Source: Bacteroidales bacterium | GTDB lineage: Bacteria; Bacteroidota; Bacteroidia; Bacteroidales; ML635J-15 | DNA: 34,753 nucleotides | Assembly (NCBI GenBank): GCA_035388205.1 | Contig: DAOOPK010000002.1 | Coordinates: 1 to 34,753 of the forward strand | Direction of reading: 5' to 3' | Part shown: piece after piece, positions 2,093 to 34,753 of the stretch | Numbering within the stretch: position 1 is the first letter of the stretch | Layout: each line of letters begins with the position of its first letter | Position numbers and translations under genes: made by a program | The notes under the pieces: generated by a model | Seen by the model: the letters and a program-made list of their open reading frames with translations, nothing else | What the model was told of the DNA's origin: nothing | The model's database searches: none

Positions 2093-3028
2093 ATGAAAAC
2101 CTATACATTTTTACTGCTATTTGTGATAGCGTTTTCGTCAATTAAATGCCAGACAGATATGAAAAATGAATATAATAAATTGACAAAAGAAGAAGAAAAT
2201 GTAATCTTACATAAGGGAACCGAACGACCATATACTGGCGAATATGACAATTTTTATGAAGATGGCACTTATGTTTGTAAAAGATGCAATTCTCCACTTT
2301 ATTATTCCGACAGCAAATTCAATTCCGGCTGTGGATGGCCTGCTTTTGATAGCGAAATTAAAGATGCTGTAAAACGAATACCCGATAAAGACGGTTTAAG
2401 AACTGAAATTGTTTGTGCTAACTGCGGTGCTCATTTAGGACATGTTTTCGAGGGCGAAGCTTTTACCGAAACTAACACTCGCCACTGTGTAAATTCTATT
2501 TCTTTGAAATTTATTCCAAATGATAAGACAACAGAATCTTCTCAAAACTATGAAACTGCAATATTTGCAGCAGGTTGTTTTTGGGGTGTTGAACATCATT
2601 TGAAACTTGCAAAAGGAGTAATTTCAACAGAAGTAGGTTATATTGGAGGCAAAACTAAAAATCCTACTTATAAAGAAGTTTGCTATTTAGAAACAGGACA
2701 TGCCGAAGCTGTAAAAGTTGTTTATGACACAAGTCAGACAAATTTCGAGAGCTTAGCAAAATTGTTCTTCGAAATACATGATCCCGGACAATTAAACCGA
2801 CAAGGGCCGGATGTTGGTTCTCAGTATAGATCCGAGATTTTCCACACAACTCCCGAACAGGCAGAAATTGCTAAAAATCTTATTAAAGTATTAGAATTAA
2901 AGGGTTATAGTGTTGTAACAAAAATAAGTCCTGCTTTAGATTTTTATCCTGCAGAAGATTATCATCAGGATTATTACGATAAAACTAATTCAAATCCTTA
3001 TTGTCATTTTTATCAGAAGAAATTTTAA
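2093..3028 (+). CDS. msrBA: Bifunctional methionine sulfoxide reductase MsrB-MsrA fusion with N-terminal signal peptide
   Basis: The N-terminal half has the MsrB/SelR pattern: two CxxC zinc pairs (CKRC, CANC), GCGWPAF, and the catalytic RHCVNS. The C-terminal half has the MsrA GCFWGVE active-site motif and HDPGQLNRQG. MKTYTFLLLFVIAFSSIKCQ looks like a signal peptide. Confidence 0.92.
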   Translation: MKTYTFLLLFVIAFSSIKCQTDMKNEYNKLTKEEENVILHKGTERPYTGEYDNFYEDGTYVCKRCNSPLYYSDSKFNSGCGWPAFDSEIKDAVKRIPDKDGLRTEIVCANCGAHLGHVFEGEAFTETNTRHCVNSISLKFIPNDKTTESSQNYETAIFAAGCFWGVEHHLKLAKGVISTEVGYIGGKTKNPTYKEVCYLETGHAEAVKVVYDTSQTNFESLAKLFFEIHDPGQLNRQGPDVGSQYRSEIFHTTPEQAEIAKNLIKVLELKGYSVVTKISPALDFYPAEDYHQDYYDKTNSNPYCHFYQKKF

Positions 3029-8968: not shown

Positions 8969-10006
8969 TTATTCGTTTATTTTCCAATGCCCTGTTTTAT
9001 CACTGCCAATACGTTCAATTTTTCCGTTGTTTCTGAGTTCTTTAATTCTTCGTCTTACGGTGCTTAAACTCAATTTCAATCGTTCGCTGATTTCATTAGC
9101 TGTTATTTTGTTGTCTTGCTTAATCAATGAAAATACAGTGTCATTTACAGTGTCAAACTGTGATTTTACAGTGTCATTTACAGTGTCAGCGAGAATGTGT
9201 GCGTCACGATTTTTTAGCGAATAATTTTCTTTTAGTAATAAGTTTGAAAGAAAGCGAATCAAAAACTTTTCTGTCCTGTGAATCCCTCTTGATAAGTCTT
9301 CGAAGTTAGCTCTTACTAGTGCATTTCGGAAATACCAAGAGTTGTGGGCAAACAAGTCGTTATTAACGTTTTTAAATCCTAATTTTCGCAAATATTTGAT
9401 AAAGAAAATGGCTGTTGTTCGTGTGTTGCCTTCGCCAAAAATGTGAATTTGCCACAAGTATGAAATAAAGTGTGCTATGTGTTCTATTATGTCCTGTTCG
9501 CTTAATCCTTTGTAGCTAAATATTCTTTCTTGTTCAAAATCATATTCCAAGCTTGCTTTCAAACTGTCGGCACTTGCATAGAGTACGGTTTCACCATTCA
9601 ACACCCATTCTATTTTCGTAATGTTGTAATCACGAATTTTTCCTGCAAATTTGTAAATGCCAGTAAACAATCTACGATGAATAGACAAGTATTCTGCCGG
9701 TGAAAAACTAAAGGTTTGCTCACTTAATATTTCAGTAATTCGTGCAGAAACCTTGTCCGCTTCTTCAGTGCGGTCTTCGTCTGTTTTGGTCGGGTTTTGT
9801 TGATAGTAACTGTCAATACGGCTTTTTACTTCGTCAATAGTTATAAGGCCTTCAATATTTTGTTTGGCAGTTTCGATGAGATATTCAGACGGTTTTAAGC
9901 CGTCCACTTGTTGCAAGCCGATAGCCATTTTCCAAACTTTTGCTTTCTCTGCTTTGTCTGGCTCACCTTGTCTTAAATATTCATCAAAGTTTTCCGTTGT
10001 TTTCAT
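8969..10006 (-). CDS. Fic/Fido-domain protein with VbhA-like N-terminal segment and C-terminal winged-helix HTH
   Basis: Fic core motif variant HIFGEGNTRTTA at aa 188-199 (nt 9410-9445), preceded by GKIRDYNITK. The N-terminus AIGLQQVDGLKPSEYL...ITIDEV resembles the VbhA antitoxin-like helix. The C-terminus ITANEISERLKLSLSTVRRRIKELRNNGKIERIG is a wHTH. Confidence 0.85.
   Translation of the reverse strand: MKTTENFDEYLRQGEPDKAEKAKVWKMAIGLQQVDGLKPSEYLIETAKQNIEGLITIDEVKSRIDSYYQQNPTKTDEDRTEEADKVSARITEILSEQTFSFSPAEYLSIHRRLFTGIYKFAGKIRDYNITKIEWVLNGETVLYASADSLKASLEYDFEQERIFSYKGLSEQDIIEHIAHFISYLWQIHIFGEGNTRTTAIFFIKYLRKLGFKNVNNDLFAHNSWYFRNALVRANFEDLSRGIHRTEKFLIRFLSNLLLKENYSLKNRDAHILADTVNDTVKSQFDTVNDTVFSLIKQDNKITANEISERLKLSLSTVRRRIKELRNNGKIERIGSDKTGHWKINE
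9134..9188. repeat. Internal tandem repeat in the Fic gene (4 copies of tacagtgtca; one 22-bp unit present twice)
   Basis: The 22-mer tacagtgtcatttacagtgtca occurs at 9134-9155 and 9167-9188. On the minus strand it encodes DTVNDTV twice, in the linker between the Fic domain and the wHTH. Confidence 0.9.
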
Positions 10007-14727: not shown

Positions 14728-15354
14728 TTAGAAGTTTCTTCCAATGAAATATGTTCCCGTAATGTTAAATACTGAATTATTCATCGAATAGAATTCAGAA
14801 GACGAAAGATCAACAAATCCAAACGAATAATTTGCTTTAACCTGAAATTGTTTAAAATCAACACCACCACCAAAAGTTAAACCGGAATCAAATCTTTTAT
14901 AACCATATTCAGGGTCAAATTCAACCTCATGTTCAAACTCTTCGTCCATAACTTCAGAATGGTAAATAGATTTGCCCGCAATAGCTACACATGTATAAGG
15001 CCCAATGTTTCCAAATACACTTAAATTCCCAATAGGTACTTTATATCCTATTGTTATAGGAATATCAATACAACCTAGATTTAATCTTGATGTTCCAAAC
15101 TCGTCAACAACCTTATTTCCCTTGTTGAAAAATGTTACTGCTGCTCCGACGTATAAGAAACTCATGATTTCCAGTTCTGCAGCAGCACCAATCTGATAAC
15201 CCATCTTGAAACTTTGTTTAACGGTTTCATCCAAAGAGTTTTTTTCTATATAACTAGTGTGGCTTAATCCGATTTGAGGTCCAAAATATAAACCTTGTGC
15301 ATTAAGTGTTGTAAAAACACTTAACAAGATAAAGATAAATAATATTTTTTTCAT
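14728..15354 (-). CDS. Small outer-membrane beta-barrel protein (porin family)
   Basis: Signal peptide MKKILFIFILLSVFTTLNAQ. Eight-strand-like alternating pattern and C-terminal Phe (FIGRNF). Confidence 0.65.
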   Translation of the reverse strand: MKKILFIFILLSVFTTLNAQGLYFGPQIGLSHTSYIEKNSLDETVKQSFKMGYQIGAAAELEIMSFLYVGAAVTFFNKGNKVVDEFGTSRLNLGCIDIPITIGYKVPIGNLSVFGNIGPYTCVAIAGKSIYHSEVMDEEFEHEVEFDPEYGYKRFDSGLTFGGGVDFKQFQVKANYSFGFVDLSSSEFYSMNNSVFNITGTYFIGRNF

Positions 15355-15382: not shown

Positions 15383-15390
15383 TAATTTTG
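15383..15390 (+). promoter_or_regulatory. Candidate -7 promoter box (TAATTTTG) upstream of the WD40-caspase cassette
   Basis: Exact match to TAnnTTTG, 80 nt upstream of the ATG at 15470, in the 115-bp divergent intergenic region. Weak evidence in AT-rich DNA. Confidence 0.25.
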
Positions 15391-15469: not shown

Positions 15470-16249
15470 ATGAAAAAAATATTATTTGTTACACTTTTAT
15501 GTATTCCTGTAAGCATCTTTGCTCAACAGATCATTCGGGGTTATTCGGCTTCGTTCTCTTACGGACTGCTTGCAAAAGGCGATGATTTTACCATACATTA
15601 TTCAGGCGATGATTATACTGCCACAGCCAGGAAAACCGAAGGAGGCAGTCTGGGATTGGGCTTTCCATTCGATTTTGGCTATAAGCGAAGCAGATTGGTA
15701 ATTACTCCGGGACTTGATTTTTTGACATCAAATTATCAACTTGATTTAGAAACAGACATTCCAGGTATAGACTCCGACAGCGACAGCCTCAAGTTGTCTT
15801 CATTTATGATCATCCCGAAAGTCGGGATAATGTATAAATTTCATTTTTATGTTAAATCTGTTCACATAGCTTTTGGTTTAGGAGCAGATGCCAACTATCC
15901 TGTTTCAAATAATATTACTTTAAAAACAAAAGATAAGGCCGAAATAATTGAGTATAATGCTGATTATAATGAAAACCCTCCAGAAGATTCCAATATTGAC
16001 TATATGGTATTTAAACCTAACACTGTTTATTCAAATATGGCAGATCTTGGTTTTCATATAAATCCAAAAATAGGATTAGATATTTATGTAACAAAATATC
16101 TGATTACTAATATAACAATTCATATTTCGCCACTGACAACTTACTCTGATAAGCCTATAATAAGGGGATATGCTGGTTTTGGTGCAAGTTATCTTATGCC
16201 ATTGGGCAAAGAAGATGATTCGAGATTATTACAATATTATAAACAGTAG
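15470..16249 (+). CDS. Exported beta-rich protein, possible outer-membrane barrel; first gene of the WD40-caspase cassette
   Basis: 259 aa. Signal peptide MKKILFVTLLCIPVSIFAQQ. Gly/aromatic-rich alternating segments (GSLGLGFPFDFGY, IAFGLGADANY, GYAGFGASYLMPLG). No terminal aromatic residue, so the barrel call is tentative. Confidence 0.5.
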   Translation: MKKILFVTLLCIPVSIFAQQIIRGYSASFSYGLLAKGDDFTIHYSGDDYTATARKTEGGSLGLGFPFDFGYKRSRLVITPGLDFLTSNYQLDLETDIPGIDSDSDSLKLSSFMIIPKVGIMYKFHFYVKSVHIAFGLGADANYPVSNNITLKTKDKAEIIEYNADYNENPPEDSNIDYMVFKPNTVYSNMADLGFHINPKIGLDIYVTKYLITNITIHISPLTTYSDKPIIRGYAGFGASYLMPLGKEDDSRLLQYYKQ

Positions 16250-16280
16250 TTAAATCAATTGATTATAAAATATTAGTTAT

Positions 16281-19200
16281 ATGAAAAAAATAATTATAAT
16301 AACAACAATAGTTCTGGCCGCGTTATCAGTTATTAAAGCTCAAGATGTTGTTCCGGTTGTTCAGGCAGGACACTCGGGTAGTATTTTATTTGTAGAGTGG
16401 GATCCCACGAGTCGTTATCTTGCAAGTGTTGATGCCAATAATGAATTGGTAATTAATGACCTTGTTTCAGGAAAAATGTTTTATAGAATGAAAATTCCGG
16501 GAGACGAAACTGTAAATGCTCTGAATTTTGAAAATGAAAATAAGCTTGTAGTTGCTACTTCAGCACAGATATTTAAATTTAATATGCGAAATCTTGAACT
16601 TGAAAAATCTTCAGGAAATGTCAATAAGAAAAAAATGACTGAAGATTTGAAAATTTATGGAGCTGTTCTAAAAAAAGGAGGGAAGTCATTATTTAACCGC
16701 GATGCATATACTTGGTTTACTTATGCTGCAAATTCAAATGATAATAAATATGTTTTAGCCGGAGACGAAAAAGGGCGTTTATATTATTGTAATTCAAATT
16801 TGAATACCAAAAAATTTGAAAACACTCATTTTTTAAGTATCAATGATATTGATTTTTCGGCTGACGGAAAGTTTGTTGCCGTTGCTTCTGCTGACAGGTC
16901 TATCTCGGTATGGAGATTGCCTGAATTTAAGTTTGAAAAAAGAATAATTCCTCGCAGCTTCAATGTTTGCGCTATTGATTCTCATCCAACAGACAGTCTT
17001 ATCGCATTTGGTGACGAATTGGGATTTGTGTATTTGCTTAAATTCGAAAATGATAAAGTAACCTGCGAAGGCATAAACGGACATAATGGGAAAATAAATG
17101 ATATTTGCTTTTCTCCAAACCCTCTTATTGTTGGTACTGCCGGAAGTGATAATCGTGCTGCTGTTGTTGACTTCGAAAACAAAAGTGTTCTTCAATATTT
17201 TACTCTTCATCCAAGAGCATCGAAAGTAAAACAAACATTTAATATAAAAAGTATTCAGGAAAAAGTAACAAACACAGAAAAAGGGAAACTATGGTTCGAT
17301 GAAAATGTGTATTCTGTTGCCATTAGTCCTGATGGAAAAACTATTGCTTATTCCGGTGGAAAATGGGGTCTTACAAATCCTGTTTTAAAAGTGTCATCAA
17401 TATCAAATTTAAATATTTTTGAGCCCAAAGAAAACAGAAAACCCAAAAAAGCAGATTTGGGATTAATGTCAAAAGAAAATCAACATATTTTTAAACAGTT
17501 ATATTTTGCTAGCGACAAGGAATTTTATGGTTTTGGCGAAGAAGATAGAGATAAGGGCGTTAGATTTAATACAACAATTACAGGTTATTCCGAGAAAGAT
17601 AAAACTACAATTGAATCCGTTTACAGAAATAACAGACCTCAAAATACTCTTGTTCTTCAGGCGTTCTATCCTAAAAATTCTGAATCTGATTATATAATTA
17701 AAACCGACCCTATCACAAAGGATGTTTATACTTGTCGTGGTTTTGATATTGAAAGACAGACTGGCGGAAAAACAATTAAATTTACCGGACACAGGGGCTA
17801 TATTAATGATTTTGAAATTGTAAAAGGTAAGGGTTATCTTGTAAGCTCTGCCGAAGATGCTTCAATGAACATCTGGGATATTAACACAGGAGAAAAGTTG
17901 TTGAGTATTTTTGTCGTTGATATGGGTAAACTGGTTTTTATTACTCCGGACAATTATTATATGGCAACTGGAGACGCTCTAACAGGCCTAGGATTTAATT
18001 TTGAAGGAAAAGTTTTTCCGGCCGAGCAATTTGATATCAAATATAATAGACCGGATTATATTTTGGAATCTTTCGGTTATTTTGATGAGGACATGATCGA
18101 ACTATACCACAAAGCCTATTTAAAAAGAATATCAAAATTAGGATTTACGGAAGAAATGCTTAACGGAAAAATCAATTTGCCAGAAATAGAGATAACAAAT
18201 CTGAATAATATTCAATTAAAAACCACCCAACCCGAAGCTCTTATCCAATTAAAGATGAAAGATGAAAATTATATTCTGGATAGAATAAATGTTTATGTAA
18301 ATGATGTTCCGTTATATGGTACAAGAGGCTTGTCTGTAAAAGATAAGTCTGTGAAATCACTTATGCAAGATATAAACATTCCGCTTTCTGCAGGACGTAA
18401 TATTATTTATATTTCTTGCCTGAATGAAAAAGGTATAGAATCTTTAAAAGAGGAATTGGAAATAGTATATGATAAAACCGACAAGAAAAAGCCGGATTTG
18501 TATCTAATTTCTTTGGCAGTTGCTGAATATGAACAGTCTCAATATAATCTAAGATATACAATAAATGATGGTCTTGGTTTTATAAAATTATTTTCCGAAA
18601 ACAGTAAGAATTTTGATAAGGTACACATACTTAAGTTTCATAATCAGGAATGTACAAGAGATAATGTACTTGCAATAAAAGAAGAGTTGATGAAATCGGA
18701 TGTTGATGATTATGTATATGTACATATTGCAGGACATGGGTTGCTTGATGATAATCTTGATTTTTATTTTGCAACTGCAAATATTGATTTTTCAAATCCA
18801 GCAAAAAATGGATTAAAGTATGACGAAATAGAAGGCTTGTTGGATGGAATACCGGCTCGCAACAAACTATTGCTAATGGATGCCTGTCATTCGGGCGAAG
18901 TTGATAAAGACGATGAATTTGCCATAAATACTGTTGGGGATGATGAAAATACCAGAGGTGTTACGATGTTTGCCACAAAGAACGAAAATAAACCTAAAAC
19001 AGGCTTACAAAATTCATATGAATTAATGAAGCTTTTATTTGCCGATTTAAAGAAAGGAACCGGTGCCGTGGTGATTTCTGCAGCATCGGGAGGTGGATAT
19101 GCTCTGGAAAACGAAGATATTGAAAACGGGATCTTTACATATTGTTTAATTCAGGCTGTTGGAAAAAGTAAAGCAGATACTGACGGAGATAAACAAATCT

Positions 19201-19313
19201 CGGTGTCTGAATTGAGAAACTATATTTTCGACGGAGTAAAAAGACTAAGTAACGGTAAACAGCAGCCAACTTCACGTAAAGAGAATTTAATGAATGATTT
19301 TATTATTAAATAA
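16281..19313 (+). CDS. Signal-peptide-bearing WD40-repeat protein fused to a caspase-like (peptidase C14) domain
   Basis: 1010 aa. Signal peptide MKKIIIITTIVLAALSVIKAQD. WD40 units include GHSGSILFVEWDP...LASVDANNELVINDL, FSADGKFVAVASADRSISVWRL, GHNGKINDICFSP and GHRGYINDFEIV...SSAEDASMNIWDI. The C-terminal ~275 aa carry the caspase dyad: HIAGHG (His819, nt 18735-18737) and LLLMDACHSGE (Cys869, nt 18885-18887). Confidence 0.85.
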   Translation: MKKIIIITTIVLAALSVIKAQDVVPVVQAGHSGSILFVEWDPTSRYLASVDANNELVINDLVSGKMFYRMKIPGDETVNALNFENENKLVVATSAQIFKFNMRNLELEKSSGNVNKKKMTEDLKIYGAVLKKGGKSLFNRDAYTWFTYAANSNDNKYVLAGDEKGRLYYCNSNLNTKKFENTHFLSINDIDFSADGKFVAVASADRSISVWRLPEFKFEKRIIPRSFNVCAIDSHPTDSLIAFGDELGFVYLLKFENDKVTCEGINGHNGKINDICFSPNPLIVGTAGSDNRAAVVDFENKSVLQYFTLHPRASKVKQTFNIKSIQEKVTNTEKGKLWFDENVYSVAISPDGKTIAYSGGKWGLTNPVLKVSSISNLNIFEPKENRKPKKADLGLMSKENQHIFKQLYFASDKEFYGFGEEDRDKGVRFNTTITGYSEKDKTTIESVYRNNRPQNTLVLQAFYPKNSESDYIIKTDPITKDVYTCRGFDIERQTGGKTIKFTGHRGYINDFEIVKGKGYLVSSAEDASMNIWDINTGEKLLSIFVVDMGKLVFITPDNYYMATGDALTGLGFNFEGKVFPAEQFDIKYNRPDYILESFGYFDEDMIELYHKAYLKRISKLGFTEEMLNGKINLPEIEITNLNNIQLKTTQPEALIQLKMKDENYILDRINVYVNDVPLYGTRGLSVKDKSVKSLMQDINIPLSAGRNIIYISCLNEKGIESLKEELEIVYDKTDKKKPDLYLISLAVAEYEQSQYNLRYTINDGLGFIKLFSENSKNFDKVHILKFHNQECTRDNVLAIKEELMKSDVDDYVYVHIAGHGLLDDNLDFYFATANIDFSNPAKNGLKYDEIEGLLDGIPARNKLLLMDACHSGEVDKDDEFAINTVGDDENTRGVTMFATKNENKPKTGLQNSYELMKLLFADLKKGTGAVVISAASGGGYALENEDIENGIFTYCLIQAVGKSKADTDGDKQISVSELRNYIFDGVKRLSNGKQQPTSRKENLMNDFIIK

Positions 19314-19350: not shown

Positions 19351-21405
19351 ATGAAAAAGTTATTATTGACAATAATTTTGATTTTCACAATATTTTTACT
19401 TAATGCACAATTTCCAACTTATGTAAAAGAACTTAAGATCGAACCGAATGGAAATATTAAAGTATCCGGAAATTTGGCTCAAGGGAAGGTAATCAATGAC
19501 TTAACTTGGGCGAGCAATAGTGCTGTAGCATGTTTCCCAAGCACTCAAAATTTAAAATTTAATGGAAAACATGTTTTATATTGGACAAGTATTCCGCCAA
19601 GAGCCGAGTTATTTATCAAAGTTATACCAGATAATCCGTCTGCAAATTTTAGCATTTATGCTTATCAGATCAGTACAAACGATTATTCTGTCGTACCGAA
19701 TCTGAATTCATGCGTTTCTTGTGAGGCGGAACACAAATGGGATTACCCGAAAGTTGGCAAAACACAAGATCATACAAGAGAAATTTCATTAAACTCTGTT
19801 GACAATTCGTATAAAATTGTCATCGGTGTTGTCGGTGCAGATGGATTATCTGAAGGCTCATACAAACTTGAATTAAGATTAGTTGGAGGAGAGGAGCAAG
19901 TAGTTATTCCACAGGAAACAGTAAAGGTATATGAAGTAGAAAGTAAAGCCAATAGTACAGTATCATATAAAGGCAATCTTAACACTGGAGTGAAAATACA
20001 TGATCTGTCATGGGCATCATCAAGTTCAAATGCATGTTGGCCCTCTACACAAGACCTCAAATTTAACGGTAATCATGTTTTATATAAAACAGTTATACCC
20101 CCGAGATCAGAAATGTATGTAAAAGTAATCCCCACAGACAAAAATGCAAACTTTAGTATTTATGCATATCAGGTAGGGGTTACCAATAATTCAATTGTTC
20201 CCAATCTGGCATCATGTATAACCTGTGAGGCAGAACACAAATGGGATTATCCGAAAGTTGGCAAAACACAGGACCATACAAGAGAAGTATATCTAAATGC
20301 GATTACGGAACCATATAACGTATTTATTGGCGTAGTAGGAGCAGACGGATTAACGACCGGAGAATATACCTTAGAAATAAAGATAGTAGGAGGGGAGAAG
20401 GAGGAGATTTTAGACCAAGCTGAAGTTAATGTAAACAATATAGAGTGTAAAGCTAATAATACCGTATCGTATAAAGGCAATTTAAATAATGGAGTAAAAA
20501 TACATGATCTTTCATGGGCATCAACTAGCTCAAACGCATGTTGGCCATCTACACAAAATCTCAAATTTAACGGTAATCATGTTTTATATAAAACAGTAAT
20601 CCCGCCCAGAGCCGAAATGTATGTTAAAGTAATACCCACAGATAAAAATGCAAACTTTAGTATTTATGCATATCAGGTAGGACTTAACAACAATTCTGTA
20701 GTTCCTAATTTGGCATCATGTGTTACTTGCGAGGCAGAGCACAAGTGGGATTATCCTAAAGTAGGAAAAACCCAGGATCACACACGTGAGATATATCTTA
20801 ATTCAATTGATAATTCGTATAATATTTATATCGGTGTTGTTGGAGCAGATGGGTTAACGACAGGAGAATATACTCTCGAAATAATGGTAGTAGGAGGGGA
20901 GGAATCAAATGAGGTGCAAGAAGAGGTAAAAGTAAGGACTTTTGAATCTGCTAAAAATAAAGTTACAGAGGTTAAAGGAAACTTGTTAGAAGGTGTGAAG
21001 ATACATGACCTGTCATGGGCATCAACAAGTTCAAATGCATGTTGGCCAGGAACACAAAATGAAAAATTTACAGGAAATCATGTCTTGTATTCCACAGAAC
21101 TTCCGGCAAATTCGGAAATGACAATAACTGTTATTCCTGATGACAAAAAAGCAAATTTCAGCATTTATGCATATCAGGTTGGTGTTGATAATAATGCTAT
21201 TGTTCCGAATCTGCCATCTTGCGTAACTTGTGAGGCAGAACATAAATGGGATTATCCTAAAGTTGGAAAAACTCAGGATCACACAAGAACAATTTCGGGA
21301 TTTACAGCTCTTAATAGTCCATATAAAGTTGTTATCGGAGTTGTTGGGTCTAACGGTCTGACAGAGGGGTCTTATACACTTAAAGTAGAAGTAAAATCGA
21401 GGTAG
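19351..21405 (+). CDS. Exported protein composed of four tandem ~168-aa beta-sandwich-like (pre-peptidase C-terminal/PPC-like) domains
   Basis: 684 aa. Signal peptide MKKLLLTIILIFTIFLLNAQ, followed by four homologous units. Each contains DL(T/S)WAS..(S/A)..AC(W/F)P, ANFSIYAYQ, an invariant CEAEHKWDYPKVGKTQDHTR, IGVVG..GL..G.Y.L, and (units 1-3) a VGGE linker. Confidence 0.85.
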   Translation: MKKLLLTIILIFTIFLLNAQFPTYVKELKIEPNGNIKVSGNLAQGKVINDLTWASNSAVACFPSTQNLKFNGKHVLYWTSIPPRAELFIKVIPDNPSANFSIYAYQISTNDYSVVPNLNSCVSCEAEHKWDYPKVGKTQDHTREISLNSVDNSYKIVIGVVGADGLSEGSYKLELRLVGGEEQVVIPQETVKVYEVESKANSTVSYKGNLNTGVKIHDLSWASSSSNACWPSTQDLKFNGNHVLYKTVIPPRSEMYVKVIPTDKNANFSIYAYQVGVTNNSIVPNLASCITCEAEHKWDYPKVGKTQDHTREVYLNAITEPYNVFIGVVGADGLTTGEYTLEIKIVGGEKEEILDQAEVNVNNIECKANNTVSYKGNLNNGVKIHDLSWASTSSNACWPSTQNLKFNGNHVLYKTVIPPRAEMYVKVIPTDKNANFSIYAYQVGLNNNSVVPNLASCVTCEAEHKWDYPKVGKTQDHTREIYLNSIDNSYNIYIGVVGADGLTTGEYTLEIMVVGGEESNEVQEEVKVRTFESAKNKVTEVKGNLLEGVKIHDLSWASTSSNACWPGTQNEKFTGNHVLYSTELPANSEMTITVIPDDKKANFSIYAYQVGVDNNAIVPNLPSCVTCEAEHKWDYPKVGKTQDHTRTISGFTALNSPYKVVIGVVGSNGLTEGSYTLKVEVKSR
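19411..21402 (+). repeat. Four in-frame tandem coding repeats (period 504 bp between units 2 and 3)
   Basis: Unit boundaries from the translated sequence: 19411-19893, 19894-20397, 20398-20901, 20902-21402. Units 2 and 3 share identical DNA runs up to ~38 nt. The similar antisense ORFs in the track (19770-20060, 20247-20564) are a by-product. Confidence 0.9.
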
Positions 21406-21460: not shown

Positions 21461-22189
21461 TTATTTCTGAACGAACAGATAAATTATCCCTAATCTTATT
21501 TGGGTGTAATAGAAGCTAATGTCATTACCTAAGTTATCATCAAAAGAATTCTTTTTGTAAAAGCGACTTAGAGATCTATAAGCTTCGATTGAAATGACAT
21601 ATTTGTCATTAATAGAATACTTTCCGCCTATATTTATACCGGCTTCAAAGATATTGATATTGTTCTTATTATTGTAACTACTATCAACATCAGGTAAAAG
21701 CCCTCCTTCTCCTATTTTGACATTAATATCTACATCATCCGACATATATGCATTGTAGGAACTATATATTCCAGTAGTTATAGCCATTTTATCCGAAAAA
21801 GAATACATAAAAGGAATTTCAATATAGAAACCAACAAGTCGAACTTTTCCTGTAATATTTGCAGTATAATATGTTGGTATATTTGCAGGCATACCCGATA
21901 TATTAGTTAAAACTACAGTGTCTTTTTTTTGACTTGCATAATAATTAAACCAACGAAAATCAGTAGAAATTTGAGGGATAAATTTAATTTTATCTGTTAT
22001 TTTGATATTTTTTCCAAAACTAACATAAGCTCCTGGAAATATTTTTGCTGATGAGTTTTCTGTTATTTGTGTTGGCATTGCCCCTCCATAATTTGTTCCA
22101 ATTCCAAAATAAATCTGAGAGAAAAGAGCCTGCGGCAGATACAAAAGAAATATTAAAGATAAGATAATGAATAGCTTATTCATATTCAA
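21461..22189 (-). CDS. Small outer-membrane beta-barrel protein
   Basis: Signal peptide (LPQALFSQ) and alternating beta-strand pattern. Overlaps the upstream gene by 14 nt. Confidence 0.6.
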   Translation of the reverse strand: MNMNKLFIILSLIFLLYLPQALFSQIYFGIGTNYGGAMPTQITENSSAKIFPGAYVSFGKNIKITDKIKFIPQISTDFRWFNYYASQKKDTVVLTNISGMPANIPTYYTANITGKVRLVGFYIEIPFMYSFSDKMAITTGIYSSYNAYMSDDVDINVKIGEGGLLPDVDSSYNNKNNINIFEAGINIGGKYSINDKYVISIEAYRSLSRFYKKNSFDDNLGNDISFYYTQIRLGIIYLFVQK

Positions 22190-23808: not shown

Positions 23809-24978
23809 TTACCTCAAATTTTTAAAGCCATTTTCTATTTCGAAGCTAATTTTTTCGAACACTTCCTCAAAACTACCAATACCGCTTATTTTAACCACTC
23901 CATGAAGTTCGTTGTATTTTTCGATAACGGGTACAGTTTTAATTTCATGATCTTGTAATCTTTGAACAATCTTGGCAGTGCTTGAGTCGTAAGGCATACA
24001 ATCTTTTGTTTTACTTCTTTCGTCAAGTCGGCGGATTAGTTCGAGTGTTGGGACTTCGATTTCTATAATTTTTGATAATGATGATCTGTGTTTTTTTAAT
24101 AATCCGTCAAGAATATAAGACTGAACCAAGGTACGTGGAAAGCCTTTAAAAATGAAACCTTTTACGCCCTTAGAGTATTCAAGTTTTTGTTCTATAAGTT
24201 TTACAACAATCTCATCAGGAATAAGCTGCCCGTTATTATATAAATCCTGAACCTGTTTGCCTATTTTGGATTGTTTTGAAATTTCTTCACCGAGCATCGG
24301 ACCTGTAGCTACATATTCAAGACCATATTTTTTGGAGATGGCTTTACCCTGTGAACCTCGCCCTGAACCCGGATAGCCGAACAAAACTATATTTAACAAA
24401 CGTTTGCTTAATTCTGTTTTAATGATTTTGTTTATTTTGCCTCTTACATTTTCAATTGTATCTATTCCCTTAATGTTAAAAAACACGCCCTTATCTTTAT
24501 AAAAATTCAATACCGGCAATGTTTTCTGATTGTATTCTTTCAACCTGTTACGGATAACCATTTCATTGTCATCCGAACGCCCTGAAGATTCTCCTCGTTT
24601 AAGTAAACGTCTCACGGATTCTTCTTCAGGAACTTCGAGGCTTATAAGACAATTTAAAGAAGTATTGAGTTTTATCATTAAGCCTTCGAGAATATATGCC
24701 TGAATATAAGTTCTGGGAAAACCATCAAATAAAAATCCGTTGACATTTGGATTGTCAGTTATTGTTTTTTCGATGATTTGAACGATTATTTCATCAGAAA
24801 CCAAACCCCCGGAGGCAATAATGCTTTGAGCTTCTTTCCCCAGTTTGGATTGTTCTTTTATTTCTTTACGTAATAAGTCGCCTGTTGAAATATAAAACAA
24901 GTTGTACTCTTTAATCAGAAATTCGGATTGAGTACCCTTACCGGCACCCGGAGGTCCAAACAATGCAATATTTAACAT
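23809..24978 (-). CDS. adk: Tandem (duplicated) adenylate kinase fusion; N-terminal half canonical, C-terminal half divergent
   Basis: 389 aa. Half 1 (aa 1-190) has GPPGAGKGT, STGDLLR, DGFPRT and a short LID RGESSGRSDDN. Half 2 (aa ~194-389) repeats the fold but has GYPGSGRGS, ATGPMLG and KGFPRT. Confidence 0.85.
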   Translation of the reverse strand: MLNIALFGPPGAGKGTQSEFLIKEYNLFYISTGDLLRKEIKEQSKLGKEAQSIIASGGLVSDEIIVQIIEKTITDNPNVNGFLFDGFPRTYIQAYILEGLMIKLNTSLNCLISLEVPEEESVRRLLKRGESSGRSDDNEMVIRNRLKEYNQKTLPVLNFYKDKGVFFNIKGIDTIENVRGKINKIIKTELSKRLLNIVLFGYPGSGRGSQGKAISKKYGLEYVATGPMLGEEISKQSKIGKQVQDLYNNGQLIPDEIVVKLIEQKLEYSKGVKGFIFKGFPRTLVQSYILDGLLKKHRSSLSKIIEIEVPTLELIRRLDERSKTKDCMPYDSSTAKIVQRLQDHEIKTVPVIEKYNELHGVVKISGIGSFEEVFEKISFEIENGFKNLR

Positions 24979-30753: not shown

Positions 30754-31293
30754 ATGAAAAGATTATTGACATTGTCTTTATTACTGTACGCAGTATTTTG
30801 TAGCGCACAGTTTCCCTCGGACTCAATAATTAAGAACTTCAGTTCTATTGAAGCTGATTTTACTTATAACGAGGAAGAAGTAGTATTAATTCCGGGGACA
30901 CATATTAAAATGCAACCACCGGAACATTTTCTTGTTAGTAAAGAAATTCCGGGATTGATTCACCCGGGAACATCTACCACAGTTCAAGTGCAGGAAATTA
31001 CCGGGACATCCTATGTTATGATTCAACAGGCAATGACCCCTGAACATTTTGAGAGCCAAGGGGTGAGTTTGATTACTTCTTACCCTGTTAAGATGCTTGA
31101 CGGTAAAACAGGAATCATTTATTTGGTTGAATTTATTGTTAATGGGTTTAATTATGAAAGAATAATGCTTTTTGCGGGTGATTATAATAATACTATCTGG
31201 ATTAATGCCAATTATCCAAAATCTGCAAAAGAATTATTACAAGATATTTTAATAAAGAGTTTATTAACAGCACAATATACTGATCAATTATGA
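30754..31293 (+). CDS. Small exported protein of unknown function, translationally coupled to the SprB-repeat gene
   Basis: 179 aa. Signal peptide MKRLLTLSLLLYAVFCSAQ. Unusually for this window it is preceded by a canonical AAGGAGG 8 nt upstream of the ATG. Its stop overlaps the next start (ATGA at 31290-31293). Confidence 0.6.
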   Translation: MKRLLTLSLLLYAVFCSAQFPSDSIIKNFSSIEADFTYNEEEVVLIPGTHIKMQPPEHFLVSKEIPGLIHPGTSTTVQVQEITGTSYVMIQQAMTPEHFESQGVSLITSYPVKMLDGKTGIIYLVEFIVNGFNYERIMLFAGDYNNTIWINANYPKSAKELLQDILIKSLLTAQYTDQL

Positions 31294-34200
31294 TAAAAAA
31301 GTTACTATTATTAGGCAGTTTTTTGGCTGTATTTGGGATTTCCGCTATGCAGTCGCAAAACATTCTTATACACGAAATACCCTATAGCACTCACCATCAG
31401 GACATGTGGGGTGCTGGCGATGCTTTCAGTCTTGATATGGATTATGATTTATTCAATATAGCAGTTCAAGATGGATTCTCTGAAGGATGGATAGAGGAAA
31501 TTCTCGGTTCTCAATGGGGTATAGGTGTTGAAATGAACATCTGGATGTTTTTAAGATCAACATTCAGTATTCATGGCTTCACTTTAGGCTCGGTTGATGT
31601 TGACTATCCGGTGGAAATTACTCTGGATTTTCCTGATGATTATACTTTTGATCATGGTGAAACAGTGCCTATTCATTCATCCTATGAAGTACTTGATGGC
31701 TGGGCTTTGGAAACACACTTTCCAACAGCCGGAGTTATTGCATTAGATTTGGAATACGGCTTCGGTTTGAATTTCGATATCATAGTCTGTATGGTAGATT
31801 GCGAAACAATTCCAATAATACCATCAATTAGCATACCTATAGATCCATATTCTACCGACCCCTTACCACACGATTCAATAGCAATTTTTTATCTTAACGG
31901 ACAAACAGGAGAAGTTGTATATCCATGTATTGATGAAGTTACTGGATTACCAATGATTTGCGAAGATGATGTCTTACCTATTGTTATTCCGGACTGGTTT
32001 GGAATTGGTTTAACAGGTGAAATTGATCTTCCCTATGTTGAAACTGAAGATTGGCTCGACCCCACCACACAATGTTTACATGCACATGGTAATGATGAAT
32101 GGTTGTGGTTTAACTTAAATATAATGCAGTTCCTTTCATTTATAGCAGGACTGATTCCGCCCCCTGAAGGTCCGGCCATACAGGAAGCAATCGACTTTTT
32201 AGATGGAGGAGTAATAGAATACGAAATTATTTCAGGTGTAACTGCAGTTATCGAGTACTTTATTCTTCATCTTGATCTACACATGTCAAGTTATATGACT
32301 CAGGATTTTGCATTTTGTCCGACTATTTGGGCAACTTTGGCATTTGAAACAGAGCTTGCATATACCGAAACAGATCCCGCCAATGGAAATGCTTTAATTG
32401 CTGAAGGTGTTTCAGATACAATAACATTTGCTATTAATAACGACCTGAATATTACTTACCCGTGTTATGAATGGGATTCGATGGAGGTTTATGATGTTAC
32501 TTATAATATTACTAGCGGATTTTCAAATCATACATGGGATTCAATTGCTTTCGATTTTATACTGGAAGCAATTTTCTTTCAGGTCACAATTCCAACGGGA
32601 GGCATTTTCCCTATAGCAGCAATGCCAGAATTTTGTCTTCCAGACATTCATATTGATAATGCTGATCTGGGGATGACACAAACCATAACTGCTTGTTCTC
32701 CTTCTTATCCTGTTCCTCAGGTGCTACTTGAAGATTACATGCCCGAAGAACAACAAAAGGGTGGGGAGTCCCAGACAAAAGACATTGAGTTCTGTTTCCC
32801 GACAAATTGCGAGCCTTTAATATCTGAAACGTTTCCATTAGGATATATTCCTCTTACATGGTATGATGAGGAATGGGATCTTCAAGGCTTTGTTCAGGAT
32901 ACTGTTTTCCCGGGTACATGGTTGTTCCCATTACCAGAACTAGATATTGATATTTCAGGACAGGATGTTGTTTGTTTCGGAGACACTTCCGGAGTTATTA
33001 CTGTGACAGCAATAAATAGTACAGGAGAGTTTACATTTGAATATTCATGGGGTTCTGTAAATACCCACATGGATCCGGTAGATAATATTACCGTGCCTTC
33101 AGGTTATTACTTTATCACTTTAACAGACGTATATGGTTGTCAGGTATTTGGTGAAATGAATATTGCAGATGACAACCCACCATTATTATCAAATTTGTAT
33201 GCAGATGATGTTTTGTGTGCTGGAGAACCTACGGGTAATCTTTATTCATACGTAAGCGGAGGAGTTCCCCCATATACATATAACTGGCAACCAAGCGGAA
33301 GCACAGATGCAAATCCTGTCGGAGTTTATGCCGGTTGGCATTATCTGACTATTACAGATGATGTAGGTTGTGAACACGAAGATTCAGTATTTATAGATGA
33401 ACCTGATGCCCCACTATCTCTGACAGCAGAAACAGGTATGGTATCTTGCTACGGCTACTCTGACGGATTTATTAATATAACTGCTGCGGGTGGTACCCCT
33501 CCTTATTATTATATTTGGTCTAATAGTATGCAGGTGCAGGATCAGATCAACATCCCCGCCGGCACTTATATAGTTACTGTTATTGATTCACACGAATGTG
33601 ATCTTGAAGAAACATTTGTTATTACGCAACCTGAGCCACTGGAATTAGCGACATATACTCAAGATGTTTTATGTTATGGCGAAAATACTGGAAGTATAGA
33701 TTTGGTTGTTACAGGAGGAACTCCGCCATATACATATGAATGGAGTAATGGTGCCGGGTCGCAGGATTTATGGGATATTTTTGCAGGCATTTATATTGTT
33801 ACGGTAACTGACGCACATAATTGTGTTAACTATACAATGGTTCAAATCGAACAGCCTGACTTACCGTTGCATGGCGATATTACTCCTACTCATGTCAGAT
33901 GTTTTGGCGAAGGAAACGGAATAGCCGATCTTAATGTTTTCGGAGGAACACCGCCATATTATTTCAGCTGGAGTAACGGAGAAATAAGCGAAGATATTTA
34001 TGATTTAATACCCGGGATTTATAGTGTTACCATAAACGATGCTCACGATTGTCTTGCTTATGATACAGTGCAGATTTTCCAACCTGATGCTCCAATGAAT
34101 GGTATGATCAGTGGTACTCATAATATGTGTAACGGAGACGAAAATGGAAATGTGTATATTACGGTCACTGGCGGAAGACCTCCATACAATTTTGAATGGT

Positions 34201-34753
34201 CTAACGGAAGCTGGCAGGAAGATTTAATAGGAGTTCCTGCAGGTAATTATACAGTAACAGCTACCGATCAAAGTTATTGCCATTATTCTATGACATTTGA
34301 AGTGACCGAACCAGAGCCATTTTATATTCAGGCAATGGATGATCCTACAATTTGTTATGGTATGAGTACCGAGATAGGTGTTGGTATTATTAGTGGCTCT
34401 GTACCACCATATACGATTGTATGGAGTAACGATGATAGTGGAATGACCACAACCGTCAATCCGACTGAAACAACTGTATTTACTGCTCATGTTATAGATG
34501 CAATGAATTGTGTAAGTGAAGATATAGAAATAACTGTTAATGTATTAAAACCAGTTGTAATGGAAGTTACTACACTTGAAGATACAGTATGTCCGGGAAC
34601 AACGGTGGACTTTGATGTAATGATTGACGGAGGTGGTTTAATAGGTGATCAGGTTTTGGTTAATGATTCTCTTATGTCAATACCGATTTCTCTGGATGTA
34701 TTTAATGATACTGTATTTAATTTCCTTGTTTATGATGTATGTAATTTTGATAG
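31290..34753 (+). CDS. Large secreted cell-surface protein with SprB repeats (3' end beyond the window)
   Basis: Not in the supplied track because it has no stop in the window. Read by hand, the frame starting at ATG 31290 stays open for 1154 codons to the window end. Signal peptide MIKKLLLLGSFLAVFGISAMQSQ. From about aa 555 there are six ~76-aa units with the SprB-repeat pattern C.G...G.I.....GG.PPY.Y.WSNG......L..I.AG.Y.VTV.D...C. Confidence 0.85.
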   Translation, partial: MIKKLLLLGSFLAVFGISAMQSQNILIHEIPYSTHHQDMWGAGDAFSLDMDYDLFNIAVQDGFSEGWIEEILGSQWGIGVEMNIWMFLRSTFSIHGFTLGSVDVDYPVEITLDFPDDYTFDHGETVPIHSSYEVLDGWALETHFPTAGVIALDLEYGFGLNFDIIVCMVDCETIPIIPSISIPIDPYSTDPLPHDSIAIFYLNGQTGEVVYPCIDEVTGLPMICEDDVLPIVIPDWFGIGLTGEIDLPYVETEDWLDPTTQCLHAHGNDEWLWFNLNIMQFLSFIAGLIPPPEGPAIQEAIDFLDGGVIEYEIISGVTAVIEYFILHLDLHMSSYMTQDFAFCPTIWATLAFETELAYTETDPANGNALIAEGVSDTITFAINNDLNITYPCYEWDSMEVYDVTYNITSGFSNHTWDSIAFDFILEAIFFQVTIPTGGIFPIAAMPEFCLPDIHIDNADLGMTQTITACSPSYPVPQVLLEDYMPEEQQKGGESQTKDIEFCFPTNCEPLISETFPLGYIPLTWYDEEWDLQGFVQDTVFPGTWLFPLPELDIDISGQDVVCFGDTSGVITVTAINSTGEFTFEYSWGSVNTHMDPVDNITVPSGYYFITLTDVYGCQVFGEMNIADDNPPLLSNLYADDVLCAGEPTGNLYSYVSGGVPPYTYNWQPSGSTDANPVGVYAGWHYLTITDDVGCEHEDSVFIDEPDAPLSLTAETGMVSCYGYSDGFINITAAGGTPPYYYIWSNSMQVQDQINIPAGTYIVTVIDSHECDLEETFVITQPEPLELATYTQDVLCYGENTGSIDLVVTGGTPPYTYEWSNGAGSQDLWDIFAGIYIVTVTDAHNCVNYTMVQIEQPDLPLHGDITPTHVRCFGEGNGIADLNVFGGTPPYYFSWSNGEISEDIYDLIPGIYSVTINDAHDCLAYDTVQIFQPDAPMNGMISGTHNMCNGDENGNVYITVTGGRPPYNFEWSNGSWQEDLIGVPAGNYTVTATDQSYCHYSMTFEVTEPEPFYIQAMDDPTICYGMSTEIGVGIISGSVPPYTIVWSNDDSGMTTTVNPTETTVFTAHVIDAMNCVSEDIEITVNVLKPVVMEVTTLEDTVCPGTTVDFDVMIDGGGLIGDQVLVNDSLMSIPISLDVFNDTVFNFLVYDVCNFD
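32952..34316 (+). repeat. Array of six SprB-type protein repeats (~228 bp each) inside the partial CDS
   Basis: The GG(T/V/R)PPY(T/Y/N)(Y/F)xW core occurs in five of the six units: GGVPPYTYNW, GGTPPYYYIW, GGTPPYTYEW, GGTPPYYFSW, GGRPPYNFEW. The first unit is degenerate (GEFTFEYSW). Each core is preceded by a CxG..(T/S/N)G and followed by a (T/N/I)D..xC. A seventh, more divergent unit follows (SVPPYTIVWSND). Confidence 0.8.

What the first reader, a model, noticed from the sequence alone, without database searches (positions are those of the whole stretch)
16281..19313. WD40 propeller - beta-sandwich - caspase architecture behind a cleavable signal peptide
Seen in sequence: aa 1-22 form a signal peptide with an A-x-A-like cleavage site (IKA/QD). 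Residues ~25-600 contain at least five recognisable WD40 units, including canonical GH...WD-type blades ending SVWRL and NIWDI. Residues ~640-735 look like an Ig-like beta-sandwich (INLPEIEITNLNN...YISCLNEKG). Residues ~738-1010 are a C14 domain with HIAGHG (His819) and DACHSG (Cys869). There is no T9SS C-terminal domain and no lipobox, so the expected destination is the periplasm or the outer membrane. Inference: about 575 aa of WD40 is long enough for one large or two stacked propellers. That would be a ligand- or partner-sensing platform attached to a protease that is probably held inactive until oligomerisation, as in other caspase-family enzymes.
Basis: partly seen in the sequence, partly recalled or inferred. 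Interest (0 to 1): 0.65.

Follow-up and report, generated by a model that had tools for sequence, protein, structure and literature searches.

The report
Exported WD40-caspase with outer-membrane barrel partner
This gene encodes a caspase-type protease that is exported out of the cytoplasm of a wastewater Bacteroidales bacterium behind a large WD40 propeller platform; the architecture is real but common and already annotated, and the new point is that it is always paired with a small outer-membrane barrel gene.

Summary
ORF 16281-19313(+) encodes 1010 aa: a signal peptide cut at A20/Q21, a WD40 region (aa 21-555), a conserved linker, a beta-sandwich (aa 635-730) and a C-terminal C14 domain with H819/C869. 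A family profile aligns the dyad and two acidic S1-pocket residues (D763, D867) with solved metacaspases. I therefore predict cleavage after Arg/Lys, not Asp.

The architecture is not rare. The C14 domain has 18,440 relatives among 50%-identity clusters, mostly at the C-terminus of long proteins, about 70% of them signal-peptide-like. Close homologues are named "caspase family protein". No member has been characterised.

It folds as a small outer-membrane beta-barrel and precedes the caspase gene in 36 of 36 core-family loci. Its C-terminal tail ([KR]-x-L-Q-[YQ]-Y-K-x) is its most conserved segment. Cytophagales relatives have a similar small protein plus a VWA lipoprotein.

Best reading: a periplasmic Arg/Lys-specific protease tethered to, or regulated by, its partner barrel. 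Activation by oligomerisation is untested. New variant of a known kind; moderate interest.

The parts
15383..15390 (+). TAATTTTG, a match to the Bacteroidota -7 promoter consensus TAnnTTTG, about 80 nt upstream of the barrel gene. Candidate operon promoter, weak evidence only.
   Evidence: it is the only match in the 115-nt intergenic region, and there is none in the barrel-caspase gap. Background is 1.1 matches per kb, so a chance hit is about 12% likely.
15470..16249 (+). Partner gene: a 259-aa exported small outer-membrane beta-barrel protein. Signal peptide aa 1-18, cut IFA|QQ.
   Evidence: AF2 pLDDT 84.7, pTM 0.77, about 10 long strands. Foldseek matches OmpA, OmpW, OmpX, Ail, Pla and the NalP translocator at probability 0.9-1.0. 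No Pfam family. Only 40 homologue clusters, on the same contigs as the caspase family. Directly upstream of the caspase gene in 36/36 core-family loci.
16199..16246 (+). Conserved C-terminal tail of the barrel protein (aa 244-259, PLGKEDDSRLLQYYKQ), predicted to be a periplasmic helix. Proposed docking peptide or cleavage site.
   Evidence: It is the most conserved segment of the protein, 0.83-0.92 against a mean of 0.65. The motif [KR]-x-L-Q-[YQ]-Y-K-[QK] is kept at 26% overall identity, and a related KK[IV]YYE[DNE] ends the Cytophagales proteins. Helix 250-258 in the model.
16250..16280 (+). 31-nt gap between the two genes with no terminator-like or promoter-like element. Co-transcription is inferred.
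   Evidence: The gaps are 5-13 nt in L001 and L002.
16281..19313 (+). WD40 - beta-sandwich - C14 (caspase family) gene, 1010 aa.
16281..16340 (+). Sec/SPase I signal peptide (aa 1-20), cut A20|Q21. It follows the Bacteroidetes Q-rule.
   Evidence: the features are conserved while the sequence is not. PMC5837995 and PMC10653852.
16341..17420 (+). First propeller region (aa 21-380): about seven WD40-like blades, with insertions at aa 111-141 and 310-340.
17421..17945 (+). Second beta region (aa 381-555): about four more blade-like units. Only the last one (GH504...IWDI) is recognisable as WD40 by sequence.
   Evidence: The wider family's conserved module starts near aa 484-530.
17946..18182 (+). 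Conserved linker and helical segment (aa 556-634). Highly conserved, low model confidence, no known family.
18183..18470 (+). Beta-sandwich domain (aa 635-730).
   Evidence: six strands at pLDDT 80-94. No Pfam match.
18492..19310 (+). Peptidase C14 domain (aa 738-1010), metacaspase/orthocaspase type.
   Evidence: PF00656; profile hits to AtMC4 6W8S (E = 2.9e-5), GSU0716 3BIJ and Yca1 4F6O.
18567..18569 (+). D763, aligned with the Asp of the metacaspase 'GC-x-N-D' motif (TbMCA2 Asp95). Acidic S1-pocket residue.
   Evidence: PMC4357240 and PMC6426788.
18735..18737 (+). Catalytic His819, in HIAGHG, at the C-terminal end of strand 811-822.
18879..18887 (+). D867-A-C869. The catalytic Cys is at the end of strand 861-869. 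The Asp at Cys-2 is equivalent to TbMCA2 Asp211.
18888..19025 (+). Disordered linker of variable length (aa 870-915), in the position of the p20/p10 intersubunit linker. It holds invariant R892-G893 (18954-18959), a candidate autoprocessing site.
   Evidence: pLDDT below 50. R892 and G893 are invariant in the 31-member family. The position is basic in 10/11 relatives at about 50% identity. That it is cleaved is inference.

Best explanation
This is a two-gene envelope module. The first gene (15470-16249) makes a small, roughly 10-stranded outer-membrane beta-barrel. Its C-terminal 16 residues are predicted to form a conserved helix on the periplasmic side. The second gene (16281-19313) makes a protein that is exported by Sec and cut by signal peptidase I at A20|Q21. 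That protein has no lipid anchor and no T9SS tag, so it should stay in the periplasm.

The N-terminal half of the exported protein is a WD40 platform, probably two propellers with about 11 blades. Its C-terminal end is a metacaspase-type C14 cysteine protease with an acidic S1 pocket, so it should cut after Arg or Lys.

I propose that the propeller platform binds the barrel's conserved C-terminal tail. That would hold the protease at the inner face of the outer membrane, where it processes envelope proteins. I also propose that the protease matures by cleavage at R892 in its disordered linker.

Shown here: the domain architecture, the export signals, the dyad and pocket alignment, the strict gene pairing and the conserved tail. 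Inferred: periplasmic residence, tail-to-propeller docking, autoprocessing and the substrates.
For: - Architecture.
- Export: the signal peptide features and the Q at +1 are conserved in 28 of 29 complete N-termini while the signal sequence itself drifts. This fits the Q-rule. There is no Cys before residue 170 and no PF18962 hit, although the genome does encode T9SS cargo.
- Active protease: H819, C869, D763 and D867 are invariant in the family and in relatives at about 50% identity. They align with the His, the Cys, the Cys-2 Asp and the GCxND Asp of AtMC4 and Yca1. His and Cys sit at the ends of consecutive strands, as in clan CD enzymes.
- Partner: the barrel gene lies immediately upstream in 36/36 core-family loci down to 54% caspase identity and 26% barrel identity. 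The barrel family has only 40 clusters, and they share contigs with the caspase family. The fold matches outer-membrane barrels.
- Tail: it is the most conserved segment of the barrel protein.
- Wider support: a homologous-looking small protein (hhalign E = 1e-4 and 3e-3; PF13568 at 27.6 bits in one) with a related YY tail heads a three-gene operon in 7/7 Cytophagales-type loci.
- Precedents from established knowledge: the periplasmic TolB propeller binds short partner peptides. The DegS PDZ domain is activated by C-terminal peptides of outer-membrane proteins. PorE has a periplasmic WD40 domain.
Against: - There is no experimental or transcript evidence. No RNA runs hold the gene.
- The barrel model matches solved barrels only at TM 0.3-0.5. 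Its strand number is not fixed.
- Blade geometry is unresolved (pTM 0.53), and aa 381-500 has no WD40 sequence signal.
- Most wider-family members have no detectable barrel neighbour. The barrel therefore cannot be needed for the protease family in general.
- The S1 assignment rests on a profile-to-sequence alignment (E = 2.9e-5), not on a structural superposition.
Confidence: 0.5

Rival explanations
1. The barrel is the substrate rather than the anchor. The protease cuts the barrel's periplasmic tail at the conserved basic residue (R252, seven residues from the C-terminus). This would change the barrel's state, for example by opening or closing it. The logic resembles protease-activated pore proteins, but located in the envelope.
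For: A basic residue is conserved just before the phi-L-Q-[YQ]-Y-K motif in all core-family barrels, and in the KKK/RKK of the Cytophagales proteins. The protease is predicted to be Arg/Lys-specific. The genes are strictly paired, with the small protein upstream.
Against: No gasdermin or other defence model matches the barrel in PADLOC at E <= 0.1, and no gasdermin structure appears among the top 50 fold matches. The barrel carries a signal peptide. A 7-residue peptide is a small switch. A conserved basic residue is equally expected in a docking motif.
Confidence: 0.15
2. The barrel is a dedicated exporter or surface anchor. It places the WD40-protease on the cell surface, or releases it, in a two-partner or autotransporter-like way. 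The protease would then act on external proteins.
For: The fold matches include 12-stranded autotransporter translocator domains such as NalP, EspP and EstA. The genes are strictly paired. The protein lacks a T9SS tag in a T9SS-bearing organism, so another route would be needed if it is on the surface.
Against: The best matches by TM-score are 8- to 10-stranded barrels such as OmpA, OmpX, Ail and OmpW. The barrel has no POTRA or Omp85 features. The passenger is about 990 aa of tightly folded propellers and is not covalently linked to the barrel. Most wider-family members lack such a barrel.
Confidence: 0.12
3. It is a cytoplasmic, apoptosome-like or NLR-like immune caspase, like the cyanobacterial caspase-NACHT-WD40 proteins or the proteases linked to bacterial gasdermins. 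On this reading the N-terminal hydrophobic stretch is not a cleaved signal.
For: WD40 with C14 is the commonest bacterial caspase-homologue architecture (PMC3501461). There are weak hits to the NCBIfam EACC1-associated caspase model (65 bits) and to the PADLOC caspase model (28.9 bits). Apaf-1 is among the fold matches.
Against: The signal peptide with an [AS]|Q junction is conserved across the family and is common in the wider family. There is no NTPase or adaptor domain. The NCBIfam score is far below its cut-off of 140. The neighbours are exported envelope proteins. The domain order is the reverse of the cyanobacterial proteins.
Confidence: 0.03
4. It is a non-catalytic scaffold, that is a pseudo-protease, in which the C14 fold only binds a ligand.
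For: Pseudo-orthocaspases with a conserved acidic pocket are known (PMC6426788).
Against: His819 and Cys869 are invariant in all 31 family members and in the wider family. Known pseudo-variants replace them with Tyr/Ser or Tyr/Asn.
Confidence: 0.05

Closest known systems
Bacterial C14 caspase homologues (orthocaspases / metacaspase-like proteins) with WD40 repeats, e.g. the cyanobacterial caspase-NACHT-WD40 proteins surveyed in PMC3501461
   Same: They share a Peptidase_C14 domain with an HC dyad in the [SA]GHG and D[SA]CHSG motifs. They also share an acidic S1 pocket and WD40 as the accessory domain. Hydrophobic N-termini, possibly signal peptides, were already noted for part of that set.
   Different: Here the order is signal peptide - WD40 - beta-sandwich - C14, with the protease at the extreme C-terminus. 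There is no NTPase. The protein is exported and is paired with an outer-membrane barrel gene. No solved caspase homologue is found by a single-sequence search; they appear only with a broadened profile.
Eukaryotic metacaspases with solved structures (AtMC4 6W8S, Yca1 4F6O, TbMCA2)
   Same: The dyad and both S1 Asp positions align. There is a long disordered linker after the Cys that holds a basic residue, as in type II metacaspases.
   Different: The match is very distant (E = 2.9e-5 at best, and only over the p20 part). There is no prodomain. Dependence on Ca2+ is unknown.
Periplasmic propeller or protease sensors: TolB (propeller that binds partner peptides), DegS (protease activated by C-terminal peptides of outer-membrane proteins), PorE (periplasmic WD40 domain in the Bacteroidota T9SS)
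   Same: A periplasmic location is proposed. A beta-propeller or a protease would read a short peptide from an outer-membrane partner.
   Different: There is no homology in the protease part. This comparison is about how it may work, not about membership. Nothing here tests peptide binding.
Apaf-1 / apoptosome
   Same: Both combine a tandem WD40 double propeller (fold match) with caspase activity.
   Different: Apaf-1 is cytosolic and driven by an NTPase, and it recruits a separate caspase. Here the propeller and the protease are one exported chain with no NTPase.

Membership tests
Peptidase family C14 (caspase family; Pfam PF00656) | The domain model matches above the curated cut-off. | tested here: met
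   47 bits against 21.4, E = 3.5e-12, aa 748-1007 covering model positions 10-232 of 233.
Peptidase family C14 (caspase family; Pfam PF00656) | A His-Cys catalytic dyad at the C-terminal ends of consecutive strands (beta3 and beta4) of the caspase-haemoglobinase fold. | tested here: met
   H819 ends strand 811-822 and C869 ends strand 861-869 in the AF2 model. Both are invariant and both align to the His and Cys of AtMC4 and Yca1. The rule is taken from PMC4357240.
Metacaspase/orthocaspase subfamily (C14B) | An acidic S1 pocket: Asp equivalents of TbMCA2 Asp95 and Asp211, which give Arg/Lys specificity. | tested here: met
   D763 aligns with the GCxND Asp, and D867 is the Asp at Cys-2 in DACHSG. 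Both are invariant. This rests on sequence alignment only. No structural superposition was possible.
Metacaspase/orthocaspase subfamily (C14B) | Peptidase activity after basic residues, with autoprocessing. | not testable with these tools
   This needs enzyme assays. R892-G893 in the disordered linker is only a candidate site.
WD40 repeat beta-propeller (PF00400) | The repeat model matches above the cut-off, with four-stranded blades. | tested here: met
   82.5 bits against 27. There are five clear repeats and about 44 strands. All top fold matches are tandem WD40 propellers.
WD40 repeat beta-propeller (PF00400) | Closed propeller(s) with a defined number of blades. | tested here: inconclusive
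   I count about 11 blade-like units, but the model coordinates could not be read. pTM is 0.53, and aa 381-500 lacks a WD40 sequence signal.
Sec/SPase I exported protein of Bacteroidota (Q-rule) | An N-terminal signal peptide with small residues at -1 and -3, and Gln at +1. | tested here: met
   The site is VIKA|QD. The [AS]|Q junction occurs in 28 of 29 complete N-termini of the family. The rule is from PMC5837995. No dedicated predictor was available, and cleavage itself is not shown.
T9SS cargo | A C-terminal sorting domain (PF18962). | tested here: not met
   There is no hit, and the chain ends with the C14 domain at residue 1007 of 1010. The same scan finds the domain in two other genes of the window.
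Lipoprotein | A lipobox Cys at the end of the signal peptide. | tested here: not met
   The first Cys is residue 170.
EACC1-associated caspase (NCBIfam NF047832) and defence-system caspases (PADLOC) | The model matches above the cut-off, with associated adaptor or NTPase genes. | tested here: not met
   65 bits against a cut-off of 140. PADLOC caspase gives 28.9 bits only. There are no NTPase, adaptor or gasdermin neighbours.
Outer-membrane beta-barrel (partner protein, 15470-16249) | A signal peptide plus a closed antiparallel transmembrane barrel. | tested here: met
   Signal peptide cut at IFA|QQ. AF2 pLDDT 84.7 and pTM 0.77 with long strands. Foldseek probability 0.9-1.0 to OmpA, OmpW, OmpX, Ail, Pla and NalP, at TM only 0.3-0.5. 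No Pfam OMP family is matched, and the NCBIfam TDE1717 hit is weak at 16.8 bits. The protein has no C-terminal aromatic residue.

The most novel reading that the evidence does not exclude
The pair could be an envelope-located sensor and executioner, a periplasmic counterpart of apoptosome or gasdermin logic. In this reading the WD40 platform detects a signal in the periplasm: envelope damage, an invader component, or exposure of the partner barrel's C-terminal tail. The fused caspase-type protease then activates and cuts the barrel tail or other envelope proteins. The result would be a change in outer-membrane permeability or cell death.
Probability: 0.08. Interest if true: 0.8.

Novelty: new variant of a known kind. 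Interest (0 to 1): 0.42.

Why it matters
Caspase homologues are abundant in bacteria, but very few have a known role, and nearly all discussion concerns cytoplasmic cell-death or immunity systems. This protein belongs to a very large, uncharacterised branch in Bacteroidota (thousands of 50%-identity clusters) that appears to work outside the cytoplasm.

The strict pairing with a small outer-membrane barrel, which carries a conserved C-terminal peptide, provides a concrete partner that can be tested. It is a starting point for finding out what exported caspase-type proteases do in the cell envelope.

One wider-family member lies in a cultured strain, Chryseosolibacter histidini PWU4 (L045). It has the related three-gene operon, so experiments are feasible there.

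Tried and rejected
- **Searches of the C14 domain against PDB sequences.** A single-sequence search and a narrow-profile search found no caspase homologue. Only a profile broadened with relatives at about 50% identity reached the metacaspases.
- **Whole-chain Foldseek.** It returned only WD40 proteins in the top 50.
- **Model coordinates.** They are not exposed to scripts. I could not count blades geometrically or inspect the S1 pocket.
- **The downstream 684-aa repeat protein as part of the system.** Rejected: it is present only in the 90%-identity relative L008.
- **Gasdermin-like identity for the upstream protein.** Rejected: it has a signal peptide, an outer-membrane barrel fold and no PADLOC hit.
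- **Defence-island or mobile-element context.** Rejected: the neighbours are housekeeping genes.
- **RNA evidence.** No RNA runs hold the gene.
- **Rfam.** Nothing was found in the window.
- **Bacteroidota O-glycosylation sequons as a marker of localisation.** There is only one D[ST][AILMTV] site, conserved in 13/31 members, so this is uninformative.
- **Barrel-like neighbours for other wider-family members.** None were found.
- **Sigma-70 style promoter and terminator scan.** The counts were at the level expected by chance.
Full report
**1. The observation**

The ORF 16281-19313 (+) is real and encodes 1010 aa.
- Pfam finds WD40 (PF00400, 82.5 bits, cut-off 27). Many beta-propeller families also match over aa 28-563.
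- Pfam finds Peptidase_C14 (PF00656, E = 3.5e-12, 47 bits, cut-off 21.4) over aa 748-1007.
- The quoted motifs are at the stated positions: SVWRL at aa 209-213, NIWDI at 530-534, HIAGHG at 815-820 (His819) and DACHSG at 867-872 (Cys869).

The N-terminus MKKIIIITTIVLAALSVIKA|QD has the parts of a Sec/SPase I signal.
- There is no Cys before residue 170, so there is no lipobox.
- There is no T9SS sorting domain. The same scan finds that domain in two other genes of the window.

**2. Family and export signal**

The protein has 47 homologue clusters at 52-90% identity. All are about 1010 aa and come from Bacteroidales or Marinilabiliales metagenome-assembled genomes. Where named, they are called 'caspase family protein' or 'WD40 repeat protein'. 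The exact sequence occurs in activated-sludge, anaerobic-digester and wastewater metagenomes.

Across the family the signal sequence drifts but its features stay. Residue -1 is Ala or Ser, and residue +1 is Gln in 28 of 29 complete N-termini. The mature end Q-x-[IV]-[IV]-P-V-[VI]-Q-x-G-H is strongly conserved. Gln at +1 is the Bacteroidetes 'Q-rule' for signal peptidase I substrates (PMC5837995, PMC10653852). All four neighbouring exported proteins in the window follow it too. Export is therefore well supported by sequence, although cleavage itself is not shown.

**3. Structure**

AlphaFold2 on a 31-sequence alignment gave mean pLDDT 77 and pTM 0.53.
- **aa 35-554:** about 44 beta-strands, that is about 11 four-stranded units. 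There are low-confidence insertions at aa 314-336.
- **Sequence-level repeats:** a blade HMM built from the family's own clear repeats finds five strong units and two or three weak ones. It finds none in aa 381-500, although that stretch is confidently beta.
- **Fold matches:** all of the top 50 are tandem WD40 double propellers, including 2YMU, Utp21, Aip1 and Apaf-1, aligned over 570-690 columns.
- **Reading:** two propellers, roughly 7 plus 4, are the likeliest arrangement. I could not read the coordinates, so the blade count is an estimate.
- **aa 556-634:** among the most conserved parts of the family, yet modelled with low confidence and matching no family. This is unexplained.
- **aa 635-730:** a six-stranded beta-sandwich at pLDDT 80-94.
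- **C14 domain:** His819 sits at the end of strand 811-822 and Cys869 at the end of strand 861-869. This is the clan CD arrangement (PMC4357240).

**4. Catalytic machinery and specificity**

Single-sequence and narrow-profile searches of the PDB found no caspase homologue. A search of 1.84 billion cluster representatives gave the following:
- 18,440 relatives of the C14 domain at E <= 1e-3, and 2,738 at E <= 1e-30.
- In all of the best 150, the domain is at the extreme C-terminus of a 600-1700-aa protein.

A profile built from 11 relatives at about 50% identity then reached Arabidopsis metacaspase-4 (6W8S, E = 2.9e-5), Geobacter GSU0716 (3BIJ) and yeast Yca1 (4F6O). In those alignments:
- the family's [AS]GHG pairs with SGHG;
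- DACHSG pairs with DSCHSG;
- the Asp of Y-[AT]-x-[KN]-D (D763) pairs with the Asp of GC-x-N-D.

These correspond to TbMCA2 Asp95 and Asp211, the acidic residues of the metacaspase S1 pocket (PMC4357240, PMC6426788). H819, C869, D763 and D867 are invariant. I therefore predict an active protease that cuts after Arg or Lys, not Asp.

The stretch after the Cys (aa 870-915) is disordered in the model and varies in length. It keeps R892-G893 in all 31 family members and a basic residue in 10 of 11 wider relatives. It occupies the place of the p20/p10 linker. Autoprocessing at R892 is an inference.

**5. The partner gene**

The 259-aa ORF 15470-16249 ends 31 nt before the caspase ATG, with no terminator-like site in between.
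- **Family:** no Pfam family and only 40 homologue clusters. Their longest contigs coincide with those of the caspase family.
- **Synteny, first look:** in two diverged loci (caspase identity 73% and 54%) a homologous gene sits 5-13 nt upstream.
- **Synteny, reference genomes:** the barrel gene is directly upstream in 36 of 36 core-family loci that have upstream sequence. This holds down to 26% barrel identity.
- **Fold:** the AF2 model (pLDDT 84.7, pTM 0.77) consists of long antiparallel strands. It matches OmpA, OmpW, OmpX, Ail, Pla and autotransporter translocator barrels at Foldseek probability 0.9-1.0, with TM-scores of 0.3-0.5.
- **C-terminal tail:** the last 16 residues (PLGKEDDSRLLQYYKQ, predicted helix 250-258) are the most conserved part of the protein. 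The motif [KR]-x-L-Q-[YQ]-Y-K-[QK]-COOH survives in rumen-clade proteins that are only 26-28% identical overall.
- **Downstream gene:** the 684-aa repeat protein is shared only with the closest relative, so it is not part of the module.

**6. Wider family**

The scan found 242 relatives across Bacteroidota. Most of those examined start with a signal peptide that runs straight into a 'Q...GH[ST]' first blade. The part conserved most widely is aa ~500-1010.

In 7 of 7 Cytophagales/Chitinophagales-type loci, including the cultured Chryseosolibacter histidini PWU4, the operon has three genes:
- a small signal-peptide protein of 220-246 aa;
- a VWA lipoprotein of about 330 aa;
- the signal-peptide WD40-C14 protein.

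The small proteins resemble the Bacteroidales barrel weakly (hhalign E = 1e-4 and 3e-3; one reaches PF13568 at 27.6 bits). Most of them end in KK[IV]YYE[DNE]. Other wider-family members sit next to paralogues, CHAT/TPR proteins, FGE-sulfatase or LPP20-type lipoproteins, with no detectable barrel.

**7. Mechanism**

The best-supported reading is an envelope module. A Sec-exported, probably periplasmic, Arg/Lys-specific C14 protease is carried on a WD40 platform. It is tethered to, or regulated by, a cognate small outer-membrane barrel through the barrel's conserved periplasmic tail.

- **Shown:** the domain architecture, the export signals, the dyad and pocket alignment, the gene pairing and the tail conservation.
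- **Inferred:** periplasmic residence, tail-to-propeller docking, autoprocessing at R892 and the substrates.
- **Rivals:** the tail is a cleavage site rather than a dock; the barrel exports or displays the protease; the protein is a cytoplasmic immune caspase; the protein is a pseudo-protease. The signal peptide, the missing NTPase and sub-threshold defence-model scores count against the cytoplasmic reading. The invariant dyad counts against the pseudo-protease reading.

**8. Comparison and novelty**

WD40 is the commonest accessory domain of bacterial caspase homologues. N-terminal hydrophobic segments that may be signal peptides, and OmpA-type operon neighbours, were noted in 2012 (PMC3501461). 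The protein is thus a member of a known and annotated kind.

Three literature searches found no characterised member and no description of an exported WD40-C14 protein paired with a barrel. I rate it a new variant of a known kind. Interest is moderate. The architecture alone would not surprise a specialist. The conserved partner, however, makes the function of a very large uncharacterised family testable.

Noticed in passing
window 19351-21405 (+): A 684-aa signal-peptide protein made of four repeats of about 166 aa. Each repeat carries 'HDLSWAS..NACWP' and 'C.TCEAEHKWDYPKVGKTQDHTR' (four Cys per unit). No Pfam family scores above its cut-off. The gene starts 37 nt after the caspase gene but is shared only with the 90%-identity relative L008.
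   Followed up: partly
window 17946-18182 (aa 556-634 of the caspase protein): A segment that is among the most conserved in the family but is modelled at pLDDT 36-60 and matches no known family. It may be an interface or a conditionally ordered element.
   Followed up: partly
window 23809-24978 (-): A 389-aa protein with two adenylate-kinase domains in tandem (PF00406, two matched stretches).
   Followed up: no
window 14728-15354 (-), 15470-16249 (+), 21461-22189 (-): Three small genes of outer-membrane barrel type lie within 7.5 kb. The divergent PF13568 gene at 14728-15354 is syntenic with the barrel-caspase pair in 14 of the related loci.
   Followed up: partly
window ~31290-34753 (+): An ORF of more than 1156 aa with a signal peptide runs off the 3' end of the window. 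It was not listed by the ORF tool for that reason.
   Followed up: no
window 8969-10006 (-); 2093-3028 (+): A Fic/DOC protein fused to a winged-helix DNA-binding domain, and an MsrB-MsrA fusion protein.
   Followed up: no
L004-L007 (distant WD40-caspase paralogues): WD40-caspase genes of about 1100 aa sit in arrays with other WD40-caspases, CHAT and TPR proteins. In L006 and L007 they are next to a bAvd/23S_rRNA_IVP gene, which is typical of diversity-generating retroelements.
   Followed up: no
L044-L047, L050, L051, L055: A conserved three-gene operon in Cytophagales and Chitinophagales: a small signal-peptide protein, a VWA lipoprotein and a signal-peptide WD40-C14 protein. The genes overlap or abut. 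One carrier, Chryseosolibacter histidini PWU4, is cultured.
   Followed up: partly
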